From Candidatus Woesearchaeota archaeon (GTDB taxonomy: Archaea; Nanobdellota; Nanobdellia; Woesearchaeales; SKGA01): DNA of 64,000 bases. Below the pieces are notes generated by a model, which saw only the letters and a program-made list of their open reading frames with translations, was not told the origin of the DNA and did not search any database. The DNA lies in the NCBI GenBank assembly GCA_046543005.1, contig JBKHAG010000002.1, positions 551-64,550 of the forward strand. The letters are read 5' to 3'. Each line of letters begins with the position of its first letter. The first letter of the stretch is position 1. Made by a program: the position numbers and the translations under genes. Shown here one piece after another: positions 19,072 to 30,667 of this stretch.

Positions 19072-19812
19072 CTAATCGTTGTCAACTCGAGGCGCAAGTA
19101 CAAAAGAAAGTTCTACTTTATCTTTAACAACATAACTTATTTTTAAAGGATAATCTGTGCTAAATTCAACACGTACAGTATCGGAAAGTTTTGATCCTTG
19201 AATTATTTTTTTTAAGTATTCAATAGAATATTTTGCTTTAACGTGCTCTTGTGTACTTTCAATAGTTGTTTGGGAATCGCCTGGAATTTCAACAGTAGCC
19301 TTAGAAAGGTCGCCTTTACTTGCAATCACAAAAGTTTCTTTTTGAACTCCAAAAGTTACGCTTTCACCAACAACATCCACGTCATCTACCGCGTCATTAA
19401 GTAATGAAGAAAGCGTAGATATTTTTGATACAAATTCTAAGGAAGGAATTTTTTGTTCTTTATCTTCAATATCAATAAGTGGAAGAAAAAAGGTTCTTGT
19501 AGACGTTGATTGTAAAACTATTTTTAATTTATTTTCATCTTGTTCTAACACTAACGTATCTGAAGATTTAGTTCGACGAAGAATTTGTTTTAAACTGTTT
19601 AAGTTTACTGTAAGGTTAGTATCTTCATCTAACTCATAACCAACAAAAGAACTAGCGGGAAGACGAAAAGCCACCATTGCCACATTAGCAGGATCCATCG
19701 CGATAAGTTCAACAAGATCTTTTGAAACTTTAATCGTTGCTTCAGTCACTATTTCTGAAACTATTGCTAGGCCGTCTTTTAGATATTTTGGTTCTGCTAA
19801 AGTTAATTTCAT
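19072..19812 (-). CDS. pcn: DNA polymerase sliding clamp PCNA
   Basis: 247 aa with the two-domain PCNA pattern (LKDGLAIVSEIVTEATIKVSKDLVELIAMDPANVAMV...). Start taken at the internal Met. Confidence 0.85.
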   Translation of the reverse strand: MKLTLAEPKYLKDGLAIVSEIVTEATIKVSKDLVELIAMDPANVAMVAFRLPASSFVGYELDEDTNLTVNLNSLKQILRRTKSSDTLVLEQDENKLKIVLQSTSTRTFFLPLIDIEDKEQKIPSLEFVSKISTLSSLLNDAVDDVDVVGESVTFGVQKETFVIASKGDLSKATVEIPGDSQTTIESTQEHVKAKYSIEYLKKIIQGSKLSDTVRVEFSTDYPLKISYVVKDKVELSFVLAPRVDND

Positions 19813-19898
19813 AAGTATCACGTAAGTAGTAGTAAACGAGCTAAAGAAGGCGCCGTATATAAAGATTTTGCTTGTAGAGGCTCTGAAAAGATACTTAC

Positions 19899-21212
19899 TC
19901 ATTCAAAAGATGTTTGTACGCCTAAAACTAGTTTTTGACATTTTGTGCACGAAAGCCCTAATTTTGATATTCGTTTACAAAAAGCCTCTTCCATAAGGGG
20001 TTCTGCATGGGCAGGAATAACAACTTCTGGTTTAATAAGGTCAACAAAATCATCAAGATCTTTACCGGCGCCATGACCAGAAGAATGAATAGAAGTAAAA
20101 AGAGAAACATTGTTTTCTTCAAGTCGTTGTTCTAATTGTGCTCGTTGGCGTTGAATTTTTACAGAAGGAATAACAGAACAAGAAAAAATAACTGCGTCTT
20201 GAGATGAAAATAAAAATTGACCTCTACTCATCCTATCTAAAACCGCGCCAGGTTCTCCTTGATGTCCTGTTACCACGATAACATAGTTTTGAGGATGGTC
20301 TTCGTTTGCTAAAAATTTTTTTACTTGACGAGCATAAGTAAAACATTTACCACGAACAGTTAAATCAACAATACCCACATCTTTTGCTGCGCGAATATAA
20401 CGAGTTAATGAACGACCCAAAAAAACAACTTTTCGATTAAGCATGTCTGCAAAATCACAAATAGATTGCAGGCGAGATAGTTGTGAAGAAAAGGTAGAAA
20501 TTACAATGGCTCGTTTAGAAGAGACATCATTTTTTAGATCAAATAATAATTGTCTTGCGTCTTGTTCACTAGTTGCGTATTTATCTTCTTGAGCGTATAA
20601 GGAATCTAATAATAATATTTTTGTTTTTCCTTGCAAGGACTTAATAGCAACAAGATCTGTTGGTTTTTCAAAAGGATGACGTTGATCGTTTTTAAAATCG
20701 TTACCGTATACGACAACGCCGTAAGGTGTATGAAAAGCAATAAGCGCGCTTTGAGGAATTGAATGTGCAACATGGATAAATTCAACGCTTACTTTTGGAG
20801 AAAGTCGTATTTTTTTACCTGTTTTAACAGCTTTTACTTCAGGATTTACTGCGTGGTCTTTACTAAACGATTGTATAAGTTTAGCAGTAAAAGGTGTTGC
20901 GTATACAGGGCGTTTTATCTTATTATACAAAAAAGGAATAGCACCGATATGATCTAAATGTCCGTGAGAACAAAAAATTCCTCGTATAAAAAGTTGTTTT
21001 CGTTGTAAAGGTTTAATATCAGGAATGGCGCCAGCGTTGACTAATTTTCTATACACATGTTTTTTATTAAAAAAATCATTTCCTGTAAGTTCAATATAGT
21101 GTTCTAAATGAACACCCATATCACAAATAAATGCTTCTTCATCTACTATGATTGCAACACAATTTTTACCCACCTCACCAAAACCACCAAGTGGAAGAAT
21201 ACTTAATCCCAT
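19899..21212 (-). CDS. Archaeal beta-CASP ribonuclease (RNase J-like, metallo-beta-lactamase fold)
   Basis: ILPLGGFGEVGKNC at the N-terminus and the HGHLDHIGAIPFL metallo-beta-lactamase motif. About 440 aa. Confidence 0.75.
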   Translation of the reverse strand: MGLSILPLGGFGEVGKNCVAIIVDEEAFICDMGVHLEHYIELTGNDFFNKKHVYRKLVNAGAIPDIKPLQRKQLFIRGIFCSHGHLDHIGAIPFLYNKIKRPVYATPFTAKLIQSFSKDHAVNPEVKAVKTGKKIRLSPKVSVEFIHVAHSIPQSALIAFHTPYGVVVYGNDFKNDQRHPFEKPTDLVAIKSLQGKTKILLLDSLYAQEDKYATSEQDARQLLFDLKNDVSSKRAIVISTFSSQLSRLQSICDFADMLNRKVVFLGRSLTRYIRAAKDVGIVDLTVRGKCFTYARQVKKFLANEDHPQNYVIVVTGHQGEPGAVLDRMSRGQFLFSSQDAVIFSCSVIPSVKIQRQRAQLEQRLEENNVSLFTSIHSSGHGAGKDLDDFVDLIKPEVVIPAHAEPLMEEAFCKRISKLGLSCTKCQKLVLGVQTSFE

Positions 21213-21292: not shown

Positions 21293-21550
21293 TGGTGCGG
21301 GGAAAGGGACACACAATACAGGAGACAGTTATCTGTATTCAAAATACAGGTAATGTTTACTCTCGCTGCGTTTTTGAACCCTTGTAGGCACTAAGCCAAC
21401 AGATGACTCACATGATTCTTCATCGCAACGCATCCTCTGATGCGATATGCTCAGCACTCAAATGCCTTGAGTCTGTCCCGTTTGGCCACTCCGGCGCCAA
21501 CGAAAACGGATGTTGGAAAACTTCATTTGACGACTCCGGCATCCCCGCAA
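21293..21550. ncRNA. Candidate structured non-coding RNA, about 250 nt, GC-rich, family unassigned
   Basis: GC-rich island in AT-rich DNA. The ends pair (gcgggga ... tccccgc), nested by gggaca ... tgtccc, with several internal perfect hairpins (cgcatc-ctct-gatgcg, aatacag...ctgtatt, ccaac...gttgg). Confidence 0.35.
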
Positions 21551-21888: not shown

Positions 21889-22302
21889 TTAAGAAAGTTG
21901 AGAAAGTTTTTTTTCGATTGTTGCAAGTGATTCTTTTAGTGCCTCTTCAGGAGATGAAGAATGGGTTTTATTTTTTGAAGAAGATTGAGATTGTTTTTTA
22001 GAAGTAGGCGTTTTTGTTGACGCTTTTTTTGTTATTTTTGAAGAAGCGTTTTGTTTTTGTTGACGCTTTTTTTCTTGAGCAACGAGTTCTTGATGAGGAA
22101 GTATATCAAAAAGATCTTGATACGATTTTTTTAAATCAGTCATTTGTGTAGAAACTTGTTCAATTAAAGCAGATTTTTCTTTTCGAATTTCAAGTAATGA
22201 ATAATATTGTTGCGAAGAAAGTAAAGACCGTTTTGCAATTGTAAGTAGTGCCGACTGTAGGGGTTGATTGTCTTTTACTTGTACAAAATAATCATTTACC
22301 AT
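21889..22302 (-). CDS. Coiled-coil protein with a K/S/T-rich tail (hypothetical); third gene of a three-gene operon
   Basis: Starts YFVQVKDN then heptad-rich helix. No known motif. Confidence 0.4.
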   Translation of the reverse strand: MVNDYFVQVKDNQPLQSALLTIAKRSLLSSQQYYSLLEIRKEKSALIEQVSTQMTDLKKSYQDLFDILPHQELVAQEKKRQQKQNASSKITKKASTKTPTSKKQSQSSSKNKTHSSSPEEALKESLATIEKKLSQLS

Positions 22303-22334
22303 TTTTTACCTTCTTTATTTTCAAGTAATAGTTT

Positions 22335-22565
22335 TTATGAATGATCTGGTTCAAATAATGCGTTATCTACAAAAGATATTTCTTCTTGGACACGAGACAC
22401 ATTATCTTTCCAATCAATAAGTTCTTGTTGTTCTTTTTCTCGAAGTCCGTCTATTTTTTCTAATGTTTTTTTAATTTGAACAATTTGTTTTTTTACAGTA
22501 TCAACTGAAGACATTACTTTTTTGTAATCATCTAGTTTAACAAAAATGGGAGCTTTTTGGTTCAT
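22335..22565 (-). CDS. Small coiled-coil protein (hypothetical), paralogous in outline to 21889..22302
   Basis: Starts IFVKLDDYKK then coiled coil. Overlaps the upstream gene by 4 nt. Confidence 0.4.
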   Translation of the reverse strand: MNQKAPIFVKLDDYKKVMSSVDTVKKQIVQIKKTLEKIDGLREKEQQELIDWKDNVSRVQEEISFVDNALFEPDHS

Positions 22566-23503
22566 TGTTTCACCTCATAATCTGAAAAAATACGTTGCGC
22601 GTTTTGGCACTGTTTTGTTATTCTTCCAAAGGACATATTTAATTTAGTAAATTGTTTTTGTAAAGATTCATCAATAGAACTTAGCGAATCTGATTTGTGA
22701 TGTATAAAACCTGACTTTAAGCGAGAGTCAATCTTGTAAAGCAAGGAAGCATATTTTTTTTCTTCAATAAATAGTAAATCTGATTGCGGGCTTTTATGCG
22801 CTAAATGTTTAGATGAAGAGTCGCGTAAAGATTCAGATGAAGAATTTGGTTGCGAAGGTGTAAACGAATCATCAAAAGAGGGAAGGTCTTGTACGCGCAA
22901 AGAATCAGAATACTTTTGTGGTGTTGACAAAACAGGGCCTTCTTGTTCTACTGGTTCTTCAAAAGAAGGTTTAAGAGTATCAGAAGATGAAAACGAATCC
23001 TGAGAAGATGCGCTATGTAAAGGTCTAGGTTCATAGTCTTCACGTATTTTTGGCGAAACAACATCTTCATCAAAAACACGCCCTTGTTCATCTGGCACGT
23101 AATGACCATTATCCTCAGGTCCTTTAAAAGAAGGAGGAAATTTTTCAATATAATGACCTGTTGGTTGAACAGATTCTTTAGGAGTAGAAAATGTACTTGG
23201 AGAAGGTGAAGATGACTCCTCTTGATTGGTAGAATCTAAAGAAGGAACAAAATCTTTATCAAAAGTAGGCGTGTCTGCAGATGTCTGGCTTGAAGGTTTA
23301 TTAAATGAAAAAGGAGTGGAAGATTTTTTTTCATTAAACGAAGTAGTATTAGGAATAGATGAAGAATTATCAGGAAAAGCTGTTTTTTTTGCATCAATAG
23401 AATCTGCAGGGTTTTGTGGTTGTTCATCTATAGGAGGTAATGAATCAAATGAAGGTACCTCTTTTGTAGCATTCTTTTTATGAAATAAATTACGTAAACT
23501 CAT
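22562..23503 (-). CDS. Protein with a long S/P/D-rich disordered N-terminal region carrying repeated PSF/TF motifs and a small C-terminal folded module (hypothetical)
   Basis: At least 8 short P(S/T)F motifs within about 230 aa of low-complexity sequence. The C-terminal LFIEEKKY...coiled coil resembles the N-termini of the two downstream proteins. Confidence 0.4.
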   Translation of the reverse strand: MSLRNLFHKKNATKEVPSFDSLPPIDEQPQNPADSIDAKKTAFPDNSSSIPNTTSFNEKKSSTPFSFNKPSSQTSADTPTFDKDFVPSLDSTNQEESSSPSPSTFSTPKESVQPTGHYIEKFPPSFKGPEDNGHYVPDEQGRVFDEDVVSPKIREDYEPRPLHSASSQDSFSSSDTLKPSFEEPVEQEGPVLSTPQKYSDSLRVQDLPSFDDSFTPSQPNSSSESLRDSSSKHLAHKSPQSDLLFIEEKKYASLLYKIDSRLKSGFIHHKSDSLSSIDESLQKQFTKLNMSFGRITKQCQNAQRIFSDYEVKQ

Positions 23504-23652
23504 TCTCGACCCCTTTGAACACTTTCAAAGAATTATCCTTTTTAAATGTTTCTTTTTAACAGGCGCTGTTGGGCTAAAAAAAAAATAATAATCGCAATAT
23601 TTTCGAAAAAAAGAGATTAAGATTTTTTAAGAAGAAAAACTAAAACAACCAC

Positions 23653-25413
23653 ATGAAACAAAAACAAAACACGCAATATCTTAAAAAAAATAAATTAACA
23701 GACAACTCATTTAATACTGCAAGGGAGAAAAAATTTTTTATTTTAGGATTGATTTTTTTATGCCTCTTACTAATTACAATGCAAACGAGTGCATGCGAGG
23801 ATAATGTTCAAACGATGCAACCATCATTTAGTACCAACAACAATACTTCTTATGAAGAAATAATATCAATAACGCCTTTATGGATTTGTGAAAAACAAAA
23901 TCTAAGTGAAGAAGAAGGATATGAAAATATAACAACTGCAGAGTTGGATTCTGATTTTTTATTTAAAGTAAAAAGAGAAAATTATAGCCAGTTAGGTGGT
24001 GAAAAAATAATTCAGTATAACATCATAGTAAATTTTACTAACACTTCAACGGCTACTCAAAATGTTTCTAAAACTATTCGCTCATACAGTAGCACAAACA
24101 CAGGAGATAAACCTTGTAAAAATTTTAGCGAAATAGAAAAAATAGTAATTAAATCAGCAAGCACACAAATAGCATGGAGCATAAACAATAACAAAAACAC
24201 AAGCACACAAGTAACTACTAACCAAACCACTAATTCATCAATAAACACAACCACCACGCCTACTTTAAATGAAAGTGAAAATACTAGCAACAACACTCTT
24301 TCAAATACAACAAACCAAACATCTACAAATACGTCCACAAATACGTCTGTAAATCAAACGAGCGACTCAACAAACGAATCAATAATAAATAACACAAATT
24401 CAAATACGCAAACAAATCAAAGCGCAGATTCACATAAAGGCATGTGTATTATTAAAACAGAAAAAAATATTTTTAAAGATGGAGAAAAAGTTTCTTTTTG
24501 GTTTGATAACCCGCATCAAACAATTGACTCTATAACGTATTGGATTGAAGATATTCAAGGAACTAATTTAAAAAAAGAATTTACAAGCGCTAACAGTAAT
24601 GAAAAGTCTTTTACTTGGAATTTAAAAAAAGAACAACAAATTGCCCATATTTACGCACGATGTTGTTTTCAAACACAAAACTGTGTTAATAATAAAAGCA
24701 TGATTGTTGCATACAAAGAAAAAATAAGCTCTGGTGAAGAAAATGAAACTGATGAAGACGAACAGAATACTTTGCAAGATCAAACAACGACAACACAAGA
24801 AGAAGAATCTAACAGCATTAGTTTTTACAAAACAGTGCTTAAAGAAAAGAACAAAGAGTTATTATTGCAAACGCAAATTCGCATTAAAAAAATCAGCGGT
24901 CGCTCGCAACTAACAACATGCGAAATTAAAACTCAAGAAAATACGTCTGCAAGTAAAGATATTATTCTTGTTGCAAAAACAAAAGGTACCTTTGAAGCGC
25001 GTTTACAAATCCCTCTTTTGAGTATGAGTAAAACATACACGCTAGGCTGTCAAGGATTAAAAACCAGCAATCAAACAACCATCATAAATGAGTATTTTAT
25101 AAATGAAACCCCTGTAAAAAAAGAAAAAACAAGCACGACAAGTAACAAACAACAAAGTCTACAATCCGAAGAAAACGACAAGAAACTAACTGCCAAGACG
25201 ACAACAAACGAAGAAAAAATCCTTGAAAAAATCACTGGCATGAGTTATGTCAATCCCGATGTAAAAAATGAAGAAAAAGTGTTTATCTATAGTGGTTTAG
25301 GAGCTATTTTAGTGCTTTTTTTGTGGTTTTTATTTAAATATGATTTGAAACGAAACAATAGTTTTATAAAACAAGTCTCATTAAAACTGAAAAGCATGCT
25401 CAAAAACAGATGA
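23653..25413 (+). CDS. Cell-surface protein: N-terminal signal/anchor, N/T/S-rich region crowded with N-x-S/T sequons, C-terminal TM anchor
   Basis: LGLIFLCLLLITMQTSA is signal-like. Dozens of NxS/T sequons (NTS, NNT, NQT, NES, NIT). C-terminal helix GLGAILVLFLWFLF followed by a basic tail. Confidence 0.6.
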   Translation: MKQKQNTQYLKKNKLTDNSFNTAREKKFFILGLIFLCLLLITMQTSACEDNVQTMQPSFSTNNNTSYEEIISITPLWICEKQNLSEEEGYENITTAELDSDFLFKVKRENYSQLGGEKIIQYNIIVNFTNTSTATQNVSKTIRSYSSTNTGDKPCKNFSEIEKIVIKSASTQIAWSINNNKNTSTQVTTNQTTNSSINTTTTPTLNESENTSNNTLSNTTNQTSTNTSTNTSVNQTSDSTNESIINNTNSNTQTNQSADSHKGMCIIKTEKNIFKDGEKVSFWFDNPHQTIDSITYWIEDIQGTNLKKEFTSANSNEKSFTWNLKKEQQIAHIYARCCFQTQNCVNNKSMIVAYKEKISSGEENETDEDEQNTLQDQTTTTQEEESNSISFYKTVLKEKNKELLLQTQIRIKKISGRSQLTTCEIKTQENTSASKDIILVAKTKGTFEARLQIPLLSMSKTYTLGCQGLKTSNQTTIINEYFINETPVKKEKTSTTSNKQQSLQSEENDKKLTAKTTTNEEKILEKITGMSYVNPDVKNEEKVFIYSGLGAILVLFLWFLFKYDLKRNNSFIKQVSLKLKSMLKNR

Positions 25414-25417
25414 TACT

Positions 25418-26011
25418 ATGAAAGAAAAAGAAATTAAGGAAAAAATTAACGAAGGATATCTGCGAGTAAGAATTCTTTTTGAAATTATTGGCAAGCCAAA
25501 AGAACATGTAGAAAAAACCATGAAGGCTTATTTAGACAAAATCGCTACAGAACAAGACATAACAATTTTAGAGCAAGAAGTTGAACCGGTTGATGAAATT
25601 GAAAAAGGAATGTTTAGCGTTATTGGAGAAATGGAAGTATTAGTTCCAACAGTTGATAAATTAACGTGGCTTGCAATTAATTTTTCTCCAGCATCTATTG
25701 AACTTATTGAACCTGAAAAAATAACCTTGCAACAAAAAGAAATTAGTAACTGGGTTAATGATTTTTTAGCAAAACTTCACGAAATCGGTATAATGCAAAA
25801 AAGTATGCAAAGTCAACAAGAAGGTTTAGTTCGTAATTTTAATGCAATGACTAGAAATGCGATTATTCTTTGTTTAAATGAACCTCGAGACGCTGAATAC
25901 ATAGCAAAAAAAATAGGTATGCAAGCAAGCCACGCCGAAAAATTCTTAGAAGCTCTTATTAAAGAAAATAAAATAAAAAAAGATAAAACCAAATACGCTT
26001 TAGCAAAATAA
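25418..26011 (+). CDS. Hypothetical protein
   Basis: ORF only; no confident motif. Its stop is 10 nt from the scpB start. Confidence 0.35.
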   Translation: MKEKEIKEKINEGYLRVRILFEIIGKPKEHVEKTMKAYLDKIATEQDITILEQEVEPVDEIEKGMFSVIGEMEVLVPTVDKLTWLAINFSPASIELIEPEKITLQQKEISNWVNDFLAKLHEIGIMQKSMQSQQEGLVRNFNAMTRNAIILCLNEPRDAEYIAKKIGMQASHAEKFLEALIKENKIKKDKTKYALAK

Positions 26012-26021
26012 CTCTAAAACA

Positions 26022-26966
26022 ATGGCAGATTTACAAAATAGGATTGAAGCGATTTTGTTTGCATCTGGTAAAGGTGTAAGTGAAGAAGACTTAGCAAATT
26101 TTTGTCAGAGTACTCCAAAAACAATCCATAAATATGCCAAAAGACTTCAAGAAGAATATGCTACTCGAGATACTAGTTTAGTAATTTCTCAACATGAAAA
26201 CAAATGGAAATTAACTGTTCGAGGAAAATATCTTAACGATATCAAACAAATAACTAGTGAAACAGAACTTAGTAATTCCGTTTTAAAAACACTAGCAATT
26301 ATTGCGTTTAAAAGTCCTGTACTTCAATCAACAATAATTGATATGAGAGGACAAGGAGCATATGAACATATTAAAGTTCTTGCAAAGCAAAAATTTCTAA
26401 CTAAAGAAGATCAAGGAAGAACATACGTCCTAAAAATTACTGATAAATTTTATAATTATTTTGATATTGAAGGTGATGATGAGATCAGAGAAGTTTTTGA
26501 CGCGATGAAAAAACAACAAAGTAGAATAATTCAAGAAGGAATTATAGCTGCAGAAAAAGAACAAGCAAAAAGAGATTCTACAAGTCCACAACGACAAGAA
26601 ACAATAATTGGACAAATATATACTCGCCAAGACGCACAAGAAGATAAAGACAAACAAAACGCTTTTTTAGAAGAAATAGATACTCGCCTTTCAAAAACGT
26701 CAAATCGATTAGATCAAGACGATATTACATCAATAAAAAAAGCTGAAGATAAACCCTCAGAAGAAAATTCAAAGCTTGAAGAAAATAAAGATGAAGAATC
26801 CAAAAACACCTCTGATGAGGACGACTCAAACAATACATTTGAAAAGATGCCTAAAAAAAAATCTCAAGAATCACAAGATGAAAAAGAGCACGATTACAAA
26901 AAAGAAATAGAAGAATTTGCTAACGAAGAAAATAGTAAAGATCAAGAAAAAGAGAAATTTATTTAG
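26022..26966 (+). CDS. scpB: Segregation and condensation protein B (ScpB) with a long acidic/charged C-terminal tail
   Basis: IEAILFASGKGVSEEDL...LKTLAIIAFKSPVLQSTIIDMRGQGAYEHIKVL matches the tandem winged-helix ScpB signature. Confidence 0.7.
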   Translation: MADLQNRIEAILFASGKGVSEEDLANFCQSTPKTIHKYAKRLQEEYATRDTSLVISQHENKWKLTVRGKYLNDIKQITSETELSNSVLKTLAIIAFKSPVLQSTIIDMRGQGAYEHIKVLAKQKFLTKEDQGRTYVLKITDKFYNYFDIEGDDEIREVFDAMKKQQSRIIQEGIIAAEKEQAKRDSTSPQRQETIIGQIYTRQDAQEDKDKQNAFLEEIDTRLSKTSNRLDQDDITSIKKAEDKPSEENSKLEENKDEESKNTSDEDDSNNTFEKMPKKKSQESQDEKEHDYKKEIEEFANEENSKDQEKEKFI

Positions 26967-29701: not shown

Positions 29702-29763
29702 GAAAAAAAATTGACAGGGTTTTGTATCGTAAAGTATTTAAGCTCTTAAACTATAAAAACTGT

Positions 29764-30282
29764 ATGAACTTCAGAGAAAATCACTTACGAAAAAAAGGTT
29801 GGAGCGAAGAAGAAATAGATTCTGTAAAAGAAATTATTAAACGACGCGAAGAAAAAAGCCCTCAAAAGAAAAAACACGTGTTTGCTCAAGTGAGTCTTTG
29901 GATTTCGTTATGCATGGTTTTATTGCTTGGAATTATAGGAGTTTTACTTGTTGAACCATTTTTATTTGTTGTAAGCCCCGCAGGTGCAATAATAATTATT
30001 GGAATAGCAGGTTTATTTGTTGGAACATTTGCAGGAATAATTGTGCGAGACATTGAGCTAGTTGAAAAAAAACATCATTTATTTATTGGAAGTATTTTTC
30101 CAATCATATCAATTATTACAAGCATTTTTTTAATAGCAACAATTAAAGATATTTTAACATTATACACTACAAACCACTATAGTGCTTTCGTGCTTGGAAT
30201 AGTTTATGGCCTTTGTGCGTTAGCAACCTACTTAATGGTTTTAGAAATAAAAAAACGAGGTGAATCTCGTGGATCTTTATGA
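29764..30282 (+). CDS. Membrane protein with four TM segments (hypothetical)
   Basis: Four hydrophobic helices. Start taken at internal Met (MNFRENH). Overlaps the downstream ORF. Confidence 0.4.
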   Translation: MNFRENHLRKKGWSEEEIDSVKEIIKRREEKSPQKKKHVFAQVSLWISLCMVLLLGIIGVLLVEPFLFVVSPAGAIIIIGIAGLFVGTFAGIIVRDIELVEKKHHLFIGSIFPIISIITSIFLIATIKDILTLYTTNHYSAFVLGIVYGLCALATYLMVLEIKKRGESRGSL

Positions 30283-30667
30283 ATGGACGAAACATTATAT
30301 TGCGTTTAAAGATATTTTAAAACGACAAATCGTTAAAAAAACATATCTTACTACGAGTATTGTTGTAGAAGAAAAAAAAGAAAAAAAGCTATACTTAGTT
30401 ATGGAAACACTTTCAGATAGTGTTGAGAGTATAAAAAAAACTAAAGGTAAAAAAACTATCATTGTCACTCACAATACTATTACCAACTGTAATACGTTAA
30501 TTAAAGAATGGGATATTTTTGCTCAAGAAGCAAACATCACAATCATTTTTGTTAATGTAGATTTAGATGATAAATGGATTATACATCCAGCAACACATCA
30601 GCACATTGCAGATAAAAAAAACCTTAAAGAAGGTATATTTTCACTTCACAATGTAGAGAAAAAATAA
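30260..30667 (+). CDS. Hypothetical protein
   Basis: ORF overlapping the upstream gene by 23 nt and ending 11 nt before radB. No motif recognised. Confidence 0.35.
   Translation: MNLVDLYEWTKHYIAFKDILKRQIVKKTYLTTSIVVEEKKEKKLYLVMETLSDSVESIKKTKGKKTIIVTHNTITNCNTLIKEWDIFAQEANITIIFVNVDLDDKWIIHPATHQHIADKKNLKEGIFSLHNVEKK

What the first reader, a model, noticed from the sequence alone, without database searches (positions are those of the whole stretch)
21889..23503. Three-gene operon of paralogous coiled-coil proteins, the first carrying a long disordered region studded with P(S/T)F motifs
The genes 22562-23503, 22335-22565 and 21889-22302 are tightly coupled (4-nt overlap, 32-nt gap). Each contains a similar module: a short beta-like start (LFIEEKKY / IFVKLDDYKK / YFVQVKDNQP) followed by a heptad-rich helix. 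The first protein prepends about 230 residues of S/P/D-rich low-complexity sequence. This region has at least eight short P-S/T-F-like motifs (VPSFDSLPP, TPFSFNKP, PTFDKDF, PSTFSTP, PPSFKGP, KPSFEEP, LPSFDDSFTPS). I recognise no known family. The architecture (IDR with repeated short linear motifs plus small oligomerising coiled coils) is reminiscent of scaffold or adaptor systems such as cell-division or envelope tethering proteins. It is divergently arranged with the large glycosylated surface protein gene. This is a candidate for an undescribed system.
Basis: partly seen in the sequence, partly recalled or inferred. Interest (0 to 1): 0.55.

Follow-up and report, generated by a model that had tools for sequence, protein, structure and literature searches.

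The report
Conserved coiled-coil gene trio in Nanoarchaeia
Three tightly coupled genes of a DPANN archaeon encode related single-helix coiled-coil proteins, one with a long disordered tail carrying short proline-phenylalanine motifs; the trio is conserved in at least 199 related species and matches no described protein family, so it is a real and undescribed module whose function is still unknown.

Summary
Three minus-strand ORFs are coupled by a 4-nt overlap and a 32-nt gap: P1 (22562-23503, 313 aa), P2 (22335-22565, 76 aa) and P3 (21889-22302, 137 aa). The host is a Candidatus Nanoarchaeia MAG.

- **No known family.** Pfam, NCBIfam, PHROGs, PADLOC and PDB sequences give only sub-threshold coiled-coil noise.
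- **Large family.** A P2 profile finds 1213 clusters among 1.84 billion proteins. At least 199 GTDB species genomes carry it.
- **Conserved order.** Of the 80 best loci, 77 have a P1-like gene upstream and 74 a P3-like gene downstream.
- **Paralogy.** The P1 C-terminus and P2 are paralogues (hhalign 99.5%, E 3e-23). P3 is probably a third, more divergent one.
- **Shared module.** Each has a short hydrophobic strand followed by a helix of about 60 residues with 3.5-residue periodicity.
- **P1 extras.** An N-terminal hydrophobic-basic motif and an acidic, proline-rich disordered linker. One conserved motif, [DE][LM]PxF, gives the window's DLPSF.
- **P3 extras.** A basic linker and a conserved three-heptad C-terminal helix.

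Best reading: a hetero-oligomeric, probably membrane-tethered coiled-coil adaptor. Its cellular process is unknown. ESCRT, SepF, FtsZ-tail and Dip memberships were tested and not met.

Side find: a three-intron tRNA-Leu(CAA) gene lies just downstream.

The parts
22562..23503 (-). P1, the long form (313 aa): N-terminal hydrophobic-basic motif, acidic S/P-rich disordered linker with PxF motifs, and a C-terminal coiled-coil module
   Evidence: ORF. Orthologue of 256 aa with conserved islands. Family architecture in 77 relatives.
23429..23503 (-). P1 residues 1-25: MSLRNLFHKKN, then VPSFDSLPPI. In relatives this is MG[FLW]..F.KKK followed by [DE]LPP.PP
   Evidence: 73 of 77 P1 relatives carry the N-terminal motif. 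The hydrophobic moment is modest: family median 0.41, window 0.27, linker median 0.23. Membrane binding is inferred, not shown.
22868..22888 (-). P1 residues 206-212, DLPSFDD: the one short motif conserved across the subclade, [DE][LM]P.F[DE], about 30-40 residues upstream of the module
   Evidence: Conserved in L001 and in L018, L019, L021 and L024 as DLPSF, DLPAF, DLPDF and ELPDF. The family-wide context of PxF is [ED][LMF]P[DESK]F[PDE][ED].
22565..22783 (-). P1 C-terminal module (about residues 241-313): short strand LFIEE plus a heptad helix; paralogue of P2
   Evidence: hhalign P1 C-terminus against P2: 99.5%, E 3.4e-23. Periodicity 3.5.
22335..22565 (-). P2, the short form (76 aa): the module alone (PIFVKLDDYK ... 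helix ... LFEPD)
   Evidence: 1213 clusters at E<=1e-3 and 678 hits with an alignment query. AlphaFold2 single helix 11-71, pLDDT 88.5. Nearly invariant P6, F8, Y14, E45, W52 and P73.
22096..22302 (-). P3 residues 1-69: strand YFVQV plus a helix of about 60 residues ending at a conserved LP
   Evidence: AlphaFold2 helix 9-67. Weak profile similarity to the P1/P2 module. P69 is invariant in 27 homologues.
21952..22095 (-). P3 residues 70-117: basic K/S-rich linker (its first part is predicted as a low-confidence helix)
   Evidence: Net charge +11 in the window. Family median +5, with 30% basic residues. pLDDT below 50 for residues 95-112.
21892..21951 (-). P3 residues 118-137: conserved C-terminal three-heptad amphipathic helix (ELxxLExELxxIExKLxxL)
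   Evidence: The most conserved part of P3. AlphaFold2 helix 118-136, pLDDT about 92.
23504..23652 (.). 149-nt divergent intergenic region shared with the surface-protein gene. It holds a TATA-like TTTAAAAA (23539-23546, minus strand) 36-43 nt upstream of the P1 ATG
   Evidence: Read directly from the sequence. Promoter function is inferred.
22571..22576 (-). Shine-Dalgarno-like GAGGTG, 5 nt upstream of the P2 start and inside the P1 coding end (translational coupling)
   Evidence: Read directly from the sequence.

Best explanation
The three genes are a vertically inherited housekeeping operon of Nanoarchaeia (Woesearchaeota-type DPANN archaea).

Proposed assembly. All three products share one module: a short hydrophobic strand followed by a heptad helix of about 60 residues. 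The helices most likely co-assemble in parallel into a hetero-oligomeric coiled coil, most simply 1:1:1 and about 85 Angstrom long.

What each subunit adds:
- P1 hangs this rod from an N-terminal hydrophobic-plus-polybasic motif, presumably lying on the cytoplasmic face of the membrane. The connection is a long, acidic, proline-rich disordered linker. It carries short [DE][LM]PxF / phi-P-x-phi-P motifs that could recruit a partner.
- P2 is the bare module. It probably arose by duplication of the P1 module, because some lineages have only a long form plus P3.
- P3 adds a basic disordered linker and a conserved three-heptad C-terminal helix, either a second binding surface or a fold-back element.

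The complex would act as a membrane-tethered scaffold or adaptor. My best guess for the process is cell division, chromosome handling or envelope organisation.

Shown: gene coupling, family-wide conservation of gene order, P1-P2 paralogy, helix and heptad character, and the composition and motif features.
Inferred: co-assembly, stoichiometry, membrane binding, motif function and the cellular process.
For: - Operon coupling.
- Trio conserved in close relatives, in distant Woesearchaeota and in 77 of 80 (P1) and 74 of 80 (P3) species-representative loci.
- The family is large: 1213 clusters at 50% identity.
- P1-P2 paralogy and a weak P3 relation.
- Single long helices in AlphaFold2 models, with 3.4-3.5 residue hydrophobic periodicity and matching hydrophobic patterns.
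- N-terminal motif in 73 of 77 P1 relatives. The P1 linker has a median net charge of -17 and is 18% proline. The P3 linker has a median net charge of +5.
- A conserved DLPxF motif.
- P[ST]F enrichment in the window's P1.
- Two-gene forms with a long form plus P3 and no P2.
- Neighbours are informational or housekeeping genes, and there are no mobile-element or defence signals.
Against: - No experiment, and no multimer model, shows that the three proteins bind each other.
- The N-terminal amphipathic moment is only modest, and in the window's own P1 it is weak (0.27, within the linker range).
- The motif partner is unknown.
- No division gene, SMC gene or membrane-remodelling gene is consistently in the operon.
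- Synteny with ScpB, RNase J, PCNA and the surface protein is lost in some lineages.
- The P3 paralogy rests on marginal scores.
Confidence: 0.45

Rival explanations
1. Chromosome-organisation adaptor. The complex links the SMC-ScpB machinery or the nucleoid to the membrane. The basic linker of P3 would bind DNA and P1 would anchor to the membrane.
For: ScpB and the adjacent MJ0538-family gene lie 1-4 genes upstream, divergently, in 53 of 80 loci, and GyrA in 31. PCNA and RNase J lie downstream in 31 and 44 loci. The P3 linker is basic.
Against: The genes are on the opposite strand and are not co-transcribed. The linkage is absent in L014/L026, L016, L017 and others that keep the system. No DNA-binding fold was detected, and lysine-rich linkers are not specific.
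Confidence: 0.15
2. Divisome component. P1 would be a SepF- or ZipA-like membrane tether (membrane motif, flexible linker, binding domain) that works with FtsZ, with P2 and P3 as coiled-coil partners.
For: The architecture parallels archaeal SepF, which has an N-terminal amphipathic helix at residues 1-12, a flexible linker and a C-terminal core (PMC8178401). Archaea lack most bacterial divisome parts, so unknown factors are expected. New three-gene division systems are still being found (the Dip system, PMC13228585).
Against: There is no SepF, ZapA, EzrA or DivIC family match above threshold. No ftsZ or sepF gene lies in the window or in the conserved neighbourhood. The archaeal FtsZ tail is built around a GID motif, not a proline motif, so the DLPxF motif is not an archaeal FtsZ-tail mimic.
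Confidence: 0.15
3. Partner of the divergently transcribed surface (S-layer-like) protein, for example in its anchoring, secretion or patterning, under a shared regulatory region.
For: A large secreted protein with a C-terminal membrane anchor is the immediate divergent neighbour here and in about 46 of 80 loci, even though the surface proteins belong to different sequence clusters.
Against: The surface proteins have almost no cytoplasmic tail in most loci, ending in ...WKR. P1, P2 and P3 have no signal peptide or transmembrane segment. The adjacency is interrupted by PhoU/PHO4 genes in some loci and is absent in others.
Confidence: 0.1
4. ESCRT-like logic. The proline motifs of P1 (MIM2-like) and the C-terminal helix of P3 (MIM1-like) would be handles for a MIT-domain AAA ATPase that remodels the assembly.
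For: The published MIM2 core expression (phi-P-charged-phi-P, PMC8970359) matches 58 of 77 P1 relatives, 1.64 per protein against 0.24 in shuffles. The P3 helix sits at the extreme C-terminus after a flexible linker, as MIM1 does.
Against: The window's own P1 has no MIM2 core match, and no relative has the full MIM2. The MIM1 consensus, in strict or relaxed form, is met by 0 of 73 P3 tails. There is no Snf7 domain. Cdv proteins are reported in three of the four archaeal superphyla, with Euryarchaeota, Asgard and TACK named and DPANN not. No AAA ATPase is a conserved neighbour.
Confidence: 0.03
5. Chance ORFs or low-complexity artefacts with no function.
For: P1 is compositionally biased, and none of the three has a family match.
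Against: Order, lengths and end-to-end alignments are conserved across hundreds of species at 30-45% identity. Invariant residues exist. Ribosome-binding sites are coupled.
Confidence: 0.01

Closest known systems
SepF / ZipA-type membrane tethers of the FtsZ ring
   Same: P1 has the same layout: a short N-terminal membrane-type motif, a long flexible proline-rich or charged linker, and a small C-terminal interaction domain (SepF layout from PMC8178401; ZipA from my own knowledge).
   Different: There is no sequence or profile similarity to SepF. The C-terminal domain is a single coiled-coil helix, not the SepF alpha/beta core. It comes with two paralogous partners. No link to FtsZ is shown.
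ESCRT-III / CdvB proteins with MIM1 and MIM2 tails
   Same: Proline motifs of the phi-P-x-phi-P type occur in a flexible region, and a conserved amphipathic helix sits at the very C-terminus after a linker. An N-terminal MG-hydrophobic-KKK start recalls CHMP6/Snf7-type membrane anchors (from my own knowledge).
   Different: There is no Snf7 fold. The MIM1 consensus is not met. MIM2 is not met in the window's own protein. DPANN is not among the superphyla named as having Cdv proteins.
Dip system of Haloferax (DipA GTPase, DipB DUF2073, DipC zinc ribbon with a disordered region; PMC13228585)
   Same: It is a recently found archaeal three-gene operon. One member has a long disordered region of variable length between conserved termini.
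   Different: The trio has no GTPase, no DUF2073 and no zinc ribbon. The Dip system is reported in DPANN only for Nanohalarchaeota.
Small bacterial divisome coiled-coil proteins (FtsB/DivIC, FtsL, ZapA, ZapB, EzrA)
   Same: They are small proteins that work as hetero-oligomeric coiled coils, with short strands that join partner sheets.
   Different: Only sub-threshold hits were found (DivIC E 0.09; EzrA in 6 of 85 members with E >= 0.003). The trio has no transmembrane helices and is of archaeal origin.
MtrG (PF04210)
   Same: It is the most recurrent weak Pfam hit: 34 of 85 P2 relatives, best E 3.6e-4. It is a small archaeal protein with an N-terminal helix.
   Different: All hits are below the curated threshold. 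By my own knowledge MtrG has a C-terminal membrane helix and belongs to methanogen Mtr operons, and neither applies here.

Membership tests
SepF (PF04472) | C-terminal SepF alpha/beta core that binds the FtsZ tail | tested here: not met
   No Pfam or NCBIfam hit for P1, P2, P3 or ten relatives. The predicted structure is a single helix.
SepF (PF04472) | N-terminal amphipathic membrane-targeting helix followed by a flexible linker | tested here: inconclusive
   The motif is present in 73 of 77 P1 relatives. The hydrophobic moment is modest, and 0.27 in the window.
ESCRT-III / CdvB | Snf7 helical core domain | tested here: not met
   No Snf7 hit in any scan.
ESCRT-III / CdvB | MIM1 consensus (D/E)xxLxxRLxxL(K/R) at the C-terminus | tested here: not met
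   0 of 73 P3 C-termini match, in strict or relaxed form.
ESCRT-III / CdvB | MIM2 motif (phi-P-charged-phi-P, with or without xxP-phi-P; PMC8970359) | tested here: not met
   The window's P1 has 0 matches and no relative has the full MIM2. The core alone is matched in 58 of 77 relatives.
ESCRT-III / CdvB | A cognate MIT-domain AAA ATPase (Vps4/CdvC) in the genome | not testable with these tools
   Only 64 kb of this genome is held and none is in the window. The literature names Euryarchaeota, Asgard and TACK as having Cdv proteins, and not DPANN.
Archaeal FtsZ C-terminal tail mimic | Nearly invariant GID-centred motif (PMC8178401) | tested here: not met
   No GID is present in P1 (sequence). 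The proline-containing tail motif is the bacterial type.
Dip system (DipABC) | Membrane-binding small GTPase, DUF2073 protein and zinc-ribbon protein | tested here: not met
   No such domains occur in the trio.
Anti-phage defence or phage-derived module | A match to PADLOC or PHROG families, or presence on viral contigs | tested here: not met
   Only coiled-coil noise was found, E >= 7e-5 and 13-21 bits. There is no relative in IMG/VR.
New family defined here (P2-type module) | P-[VI]-F-[VI]-K-x-[DE]-x-Y start, a heptad helix of about 60 residues with a conserved E...W, and an LFEP end; found alone or at the C-terminus of a long form; followed by a P3-type gene | tested here: met
   The window's P2 scores 105 bits against the 40-sequence profile. 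The window's P1 and P3 are in the expected positions.

The most novel reading that the evidence does not exclude
The trio is the core of a previously unrecognised, DPANN-specific membrane-associated coiled-coil apparatus. For example, it could be a new tether or filament system acting in cell division, chromosome partitioning, or the organisation of the cell surface and host-contact site in these tiny episymbiotic archaea. The acidic linker of P1, with its multiple motifs, would recruit an as yet unknown partner.
Probability: 0.2. Interest if true: 0.75.

Novelty: categorically new. Interest (0 to 1): 0.55.

Why it matters
Woesearchaeota-type Nanoarchaeia are abundant and almost entirely uncultivated, and their cell biology is essentially unknown. 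A three-gene module that is kept in order across at least 199 species, and that has no counterpart in any curated family library, is a concrete handle on that biology.

It can be tested directly: multimer modelling, co-expression, liposome binding and motif pull-downs. If it proves to be a membrane tether for division, chromosome handling or surface organisation, it would add a new component class to archaeal cell biology.

At minimum, the work defines protein families that are not yet in Pfam and deserve entries. It also corrects the annotation of a nearby tRNA gene that standard tools miss.

Tried and rejected
**Homology searches that found nothing**
- Pairwise BLASTP among the three proteins found nothing. 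Only profiles show the relation.
- Word-indexed searches with single proteins found only near relatives.
- Pfam, NCBIfam, PADLOC, PHROGs and PDB sequence searches gave only sub-threshold coiled-coil hits, whether run with single proteins or with whole alignments. Examples are MtrG, NPV_P10, COG6_N, LmuB/JetC arms and tricellulin.
- An IMG/VR scan found no relative.
- Five literature searches found no description of the trio.

- An RNase J anchor scan of species genomes found nothing.
- The 40-sequence alignment was too diverse for the locus scan. A six-sequence alignment worked.
- Fold searches were not run, because both models are isolated helices and would match any coiled coil.

**Ideas rejected**
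- ESCRT MIM1/MIM2 handles: rejected by regular-expression tests and the literature.
- FtsZ-tail mimicry: rejected because archaeal tails use a GID motif.
- The Dip system was read and excluded.

**RNA searches**
- Rfam and ARAGORN found no RNA in the window. The conserved element downstream of P3 was solved only by comparison with related loci.
Full report
**1. What is in the window**

- P1: 22562-23503, 313 aa.
- P2: 22335-22565, 76 aa.
- P3: 21889-22302, 137 aa.

P1 and P2 overlap by 4 nt (ATGA). P2 and P3 are 32 nt apart. GAGGTG lies 5 nt upstream of the P2 start and GAAGGT lies upstream of P3. A TATA-like TTTAAAAA lies 36-43 nt upstream of the P1 start, in the 149-nt spacer shared with the divergent surface-protein gene.

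The window is about 32% G+C. It carries archaeal informational genes: PCNA, RNase J, ScpB, GyrA, RadA paralogues, PolD large subunit, Hef and a ribosomal protein operon. Identical proteins occur in MAGs named Candidatus Nanoarchaeia archaeon.

**2. The motif claim**

Strict P[ST]F occurs five times against 0.51 expected from shuffling the disordered region (p about 1.5e-4). The looser pattern occurs eight times against 1.04 expected.

Comparison with the 256-aa orthologue shows that the disordered region changes length, while several islands are conserved:
- MSLRNLFHKKN..PSFDxLPPI.
- FPPxFKGPEDN..VFDEDVVSPKIR.
- DLPSFDDS.
- The last 75 residues or so.

Across the wider subclade only three features persist: the N-terminal motif, an LPP[IV] motif, and a [DE]LP[SAD]F motif 30-40 residues before the module.

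**3. No known family**

Scans of Pfam, NCBIfam, PHROGs and PADLOC, and profile searches of PDB sequences, give only sub-threshold coiled-coil noise. This holds for the window proteins and for distant relatives. Precomputed Pfam tables from a newer release also show nothing for these genes, although they name the neighbouring gene PF27325. Five literature searches found no description.

**4. The family is large and the trio is conserved**

- A profile of P2 and three close relatives, searched exhaustively against 1.84 billion representatives, found 1213 clusters at E<=1e-3. Most are 72-80 aa and align end to end.
- About a quarter of the best 150 are longer proteins (117-299 aa) with the module at the C-terminus. 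These have an MG[LF]F.KKK start and LPE[LF]P-type proline motifs.
- A 40-sequence profile found 678 further proteins. The named ones are all Woesearchaeota or Nanoarchaeota 'hypothetical protein'.
- In contigs from distant Woesearchaeota the same order is found: long form, short form, then a gene of 126-142 aa.
- A scan of one genome per GTDB species found 199 genomes with a relative.
- In the best 80 loci, 77 have a P1-like gene immediately upstream and 74 a P3-like gene immediately downstream. The rest are mostly at contig ends.
- Some lineages have only a long form followed by a P3-like gene (L016, L017, L046, L047). This suggests that P2 arose by duplication of the P1 module.
- No relative is on viral contigs.

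**5. Paralogy and structure**

Pairwise BLASTP of the window proteins finds nothing. At family level the relation is clear for P1 and P2:
- The P2 HMM detects the C-terminus of the upstream gene in most loci, at E 1e-5 to 5e-21.
- hhalign of the P1 C-terminus against P2 gives 99.5% probability, E 3.4e-23, over 73 columns.
- P1 and P2 relatives form one BLAST cluster.

P3 is more distant:
- hhalign against the P1 module gives E 2e-4, 46% probability, in register from the hydrophobic strand.
- Five P3 proteins hit the P2 HMM at E 4e-5 to 1e-3. No unrelated ORF among 5,935 does.

Structure predictions agree on the shared architecture:
- AlphaFold2 with 85 sequences models P2 as an extended N-terminus plus one helix, residues 11-71 (pLDDT 88.5).
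- P3, folded alone, gives helix 9-67 (pLDDT about 97), a weaker helix 70-90, disorder to residue 117, and helix 118-136.
- Family hydrophobicity profiles have a dominant period of 3.5, 3.5 and 3.4 residues. P1 and P2 show nearly superimposable patterns.

In isolation it is one long helix, not a hairpin.

**6. Accessory features**

- Of 77 P1 relatives, 73 start with a hydrophobic-then-polybasic motif.
- P1 linkers are acidic (median net charge -17) and 18% proline.
- The PxF context is [ED][LMF]P[DESK]F[PDE][ED].
- P3 linkers are basic (median net charge +5, and +11 in the window).
- The helical hydrophobic moment of the P1 N-terminus is modest: family median 0.41 against 0.23 for linker windows. 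It is weak in the window (0.27). Membrane binding is therefore an inference.

**7. Neighbourhood**

Clustering of all ORFs in the 80 loci gives a common arrangement:

GyrA < ScpB < MJ0538-family < (PhoU, PHO4) < surface protein | P1 > P2 > P3 > tRNA-Leu > RNase J > PCNA

The counts out of 80 loci are:

| Neighbour | Loci |
|---|---|
| ScpB and the MJ0538-family gene | 53 |
| RNase J | 44 |
| Surface protein | about 46 |
| PCNA | 31 |

Other lineages keep the trio or the pair in a different setting, such as a DRG GTPase with CysRS, or TFIIE-alpha with AlaRS. The core unit is thus P1-(P2)-P3. The linkage may simply be inherited synteny.

**8. Mechanism**

The most economical reading is a hetero-oligomeric parallel coiled coil of the three homologous helices. 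P1 would tether it to the membrane through a long acidic linker carrying motifs. P3 would add a basic linker and a C-terminal helix. Only the sequence-level facts are shown. Assembly, membrane binding and partner recruitment are inferred.

Specific known systems were tested and failed:
- **ESCRT:** no Snf7 domain. MIM1 is met in 0 of 73 P3 tails. The MIM2 core is absent from the window's P1, although it is enriched in relatives. The cited review does not name DPANN among the superphyla with Cdv proteins.
- **SepF:** no core domain.
- **FtsZ-tail mimicry:** archaeal tails use GID.
- **The Dip system:** it has different domains.
- **Defence or phage origin:** no match.

**9. Side finding**

The 676-nt 'empty' gap between P3 and RNase J holds a 125-nt stretch that is 72-93% identical across many loci. 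Comparison with an intron-less copy in L020 shows it is tRNA-Leu(CAA).

In the window the gene spans 21296-21548 on the minus strand, with CCA encoded at 21293-21295. Three insertions of 45, 61 and 64 nt interrupt it. After removing them, ARAGORN calls tRNA-Leu(caa). ARAGORN and Rfam both miss the unspliced gene.

**10. Verdict**

The families are new to the curated libraries. Interest is moderate because the function is still unknown.

Noticed in passing
window 21293-21548 (minus strand): This is a tRNA-Leu(CAA) gene interrupted by three putative introns: about 45 nt in the D-arm region (21489-21533), 61 nt after position 37 (21405-21465), and 64 nt in the T-loop (21309-21372). ARAGORN and Rfam miss it. 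After manual splicing ARAGORN calls tRNA-Leu(caa). The gene sits just downstream of P3 in 30 or more related loci, mostly with only the anticodon-loop intron, and is intron-less in L020.
   Followed up: yes
window 21405-21465 (minus strand), inside the tRNA-Leu gene: The anticodon-loop intron carries C/D-box-like elements (GCGATGAAG ... CTGAG) that are conserved between loci. It gave a weak SNORD10 hit (E 0.098). It might encode a guide RNA, as some archaeal tRNA introns do (my own knowledge).
   Followed up: partly
window 25418-26011 (+), next to scpB at 26022-26966: A 197-aa MJ0538-family protein (PF27325 in the precomputed tables) has a weak C-terminal winged-helix signal. It sits directly upstream of ScpB, where ScpA normally lies. 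The pair is conserved in 53 of 80 related loci. It could be a divergent kleisin or ScpA.
   Followed up: partly
L022, L028, L034, L056, L086 and other loci; window 23653-25413: The divergent surface proteins differ greatly in length (168-764 aa) and some start with a lamin-tail-like domain. Most end in a shared tail, [VI]Y.SS..KA, then a membrane helix, then K/R. This looks like a sorting signal of the archaeosortase type. The window's protein has a different and longer basic tail.
   Followed up: no
L018-L020, L022, L025, L026 and others (record titles): Many MAGs titled 'uncultured Methanosarcinales archaeon' carry the same trio and the same Woesearchaeota-type synteny. They are probably mislabelled in the public records.
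   Followed up: no
window 29722-30282 and 30260-30667 (+): Two small genes with no Pfam match lie between gyrA and a RadA/RadB-like gene. They are conserved in the close relative L002 (166 and 135 aa).
   Followed up: no
window 19072-19902 (minus strand): The PCNA ORF can be read as 276 aa, overlapping the RNase J stop by 4 nt, but one MAG annotates it as 246 aa. The first 30 residues are hydrophobic and may not be translated.
   Followed up: no
L012 1-1968: GyrA in one Woesearchaeota relative carries an intein, giving a 1345-aa product. L031 also has a 1251-aa GyrA.
   Followed up: no
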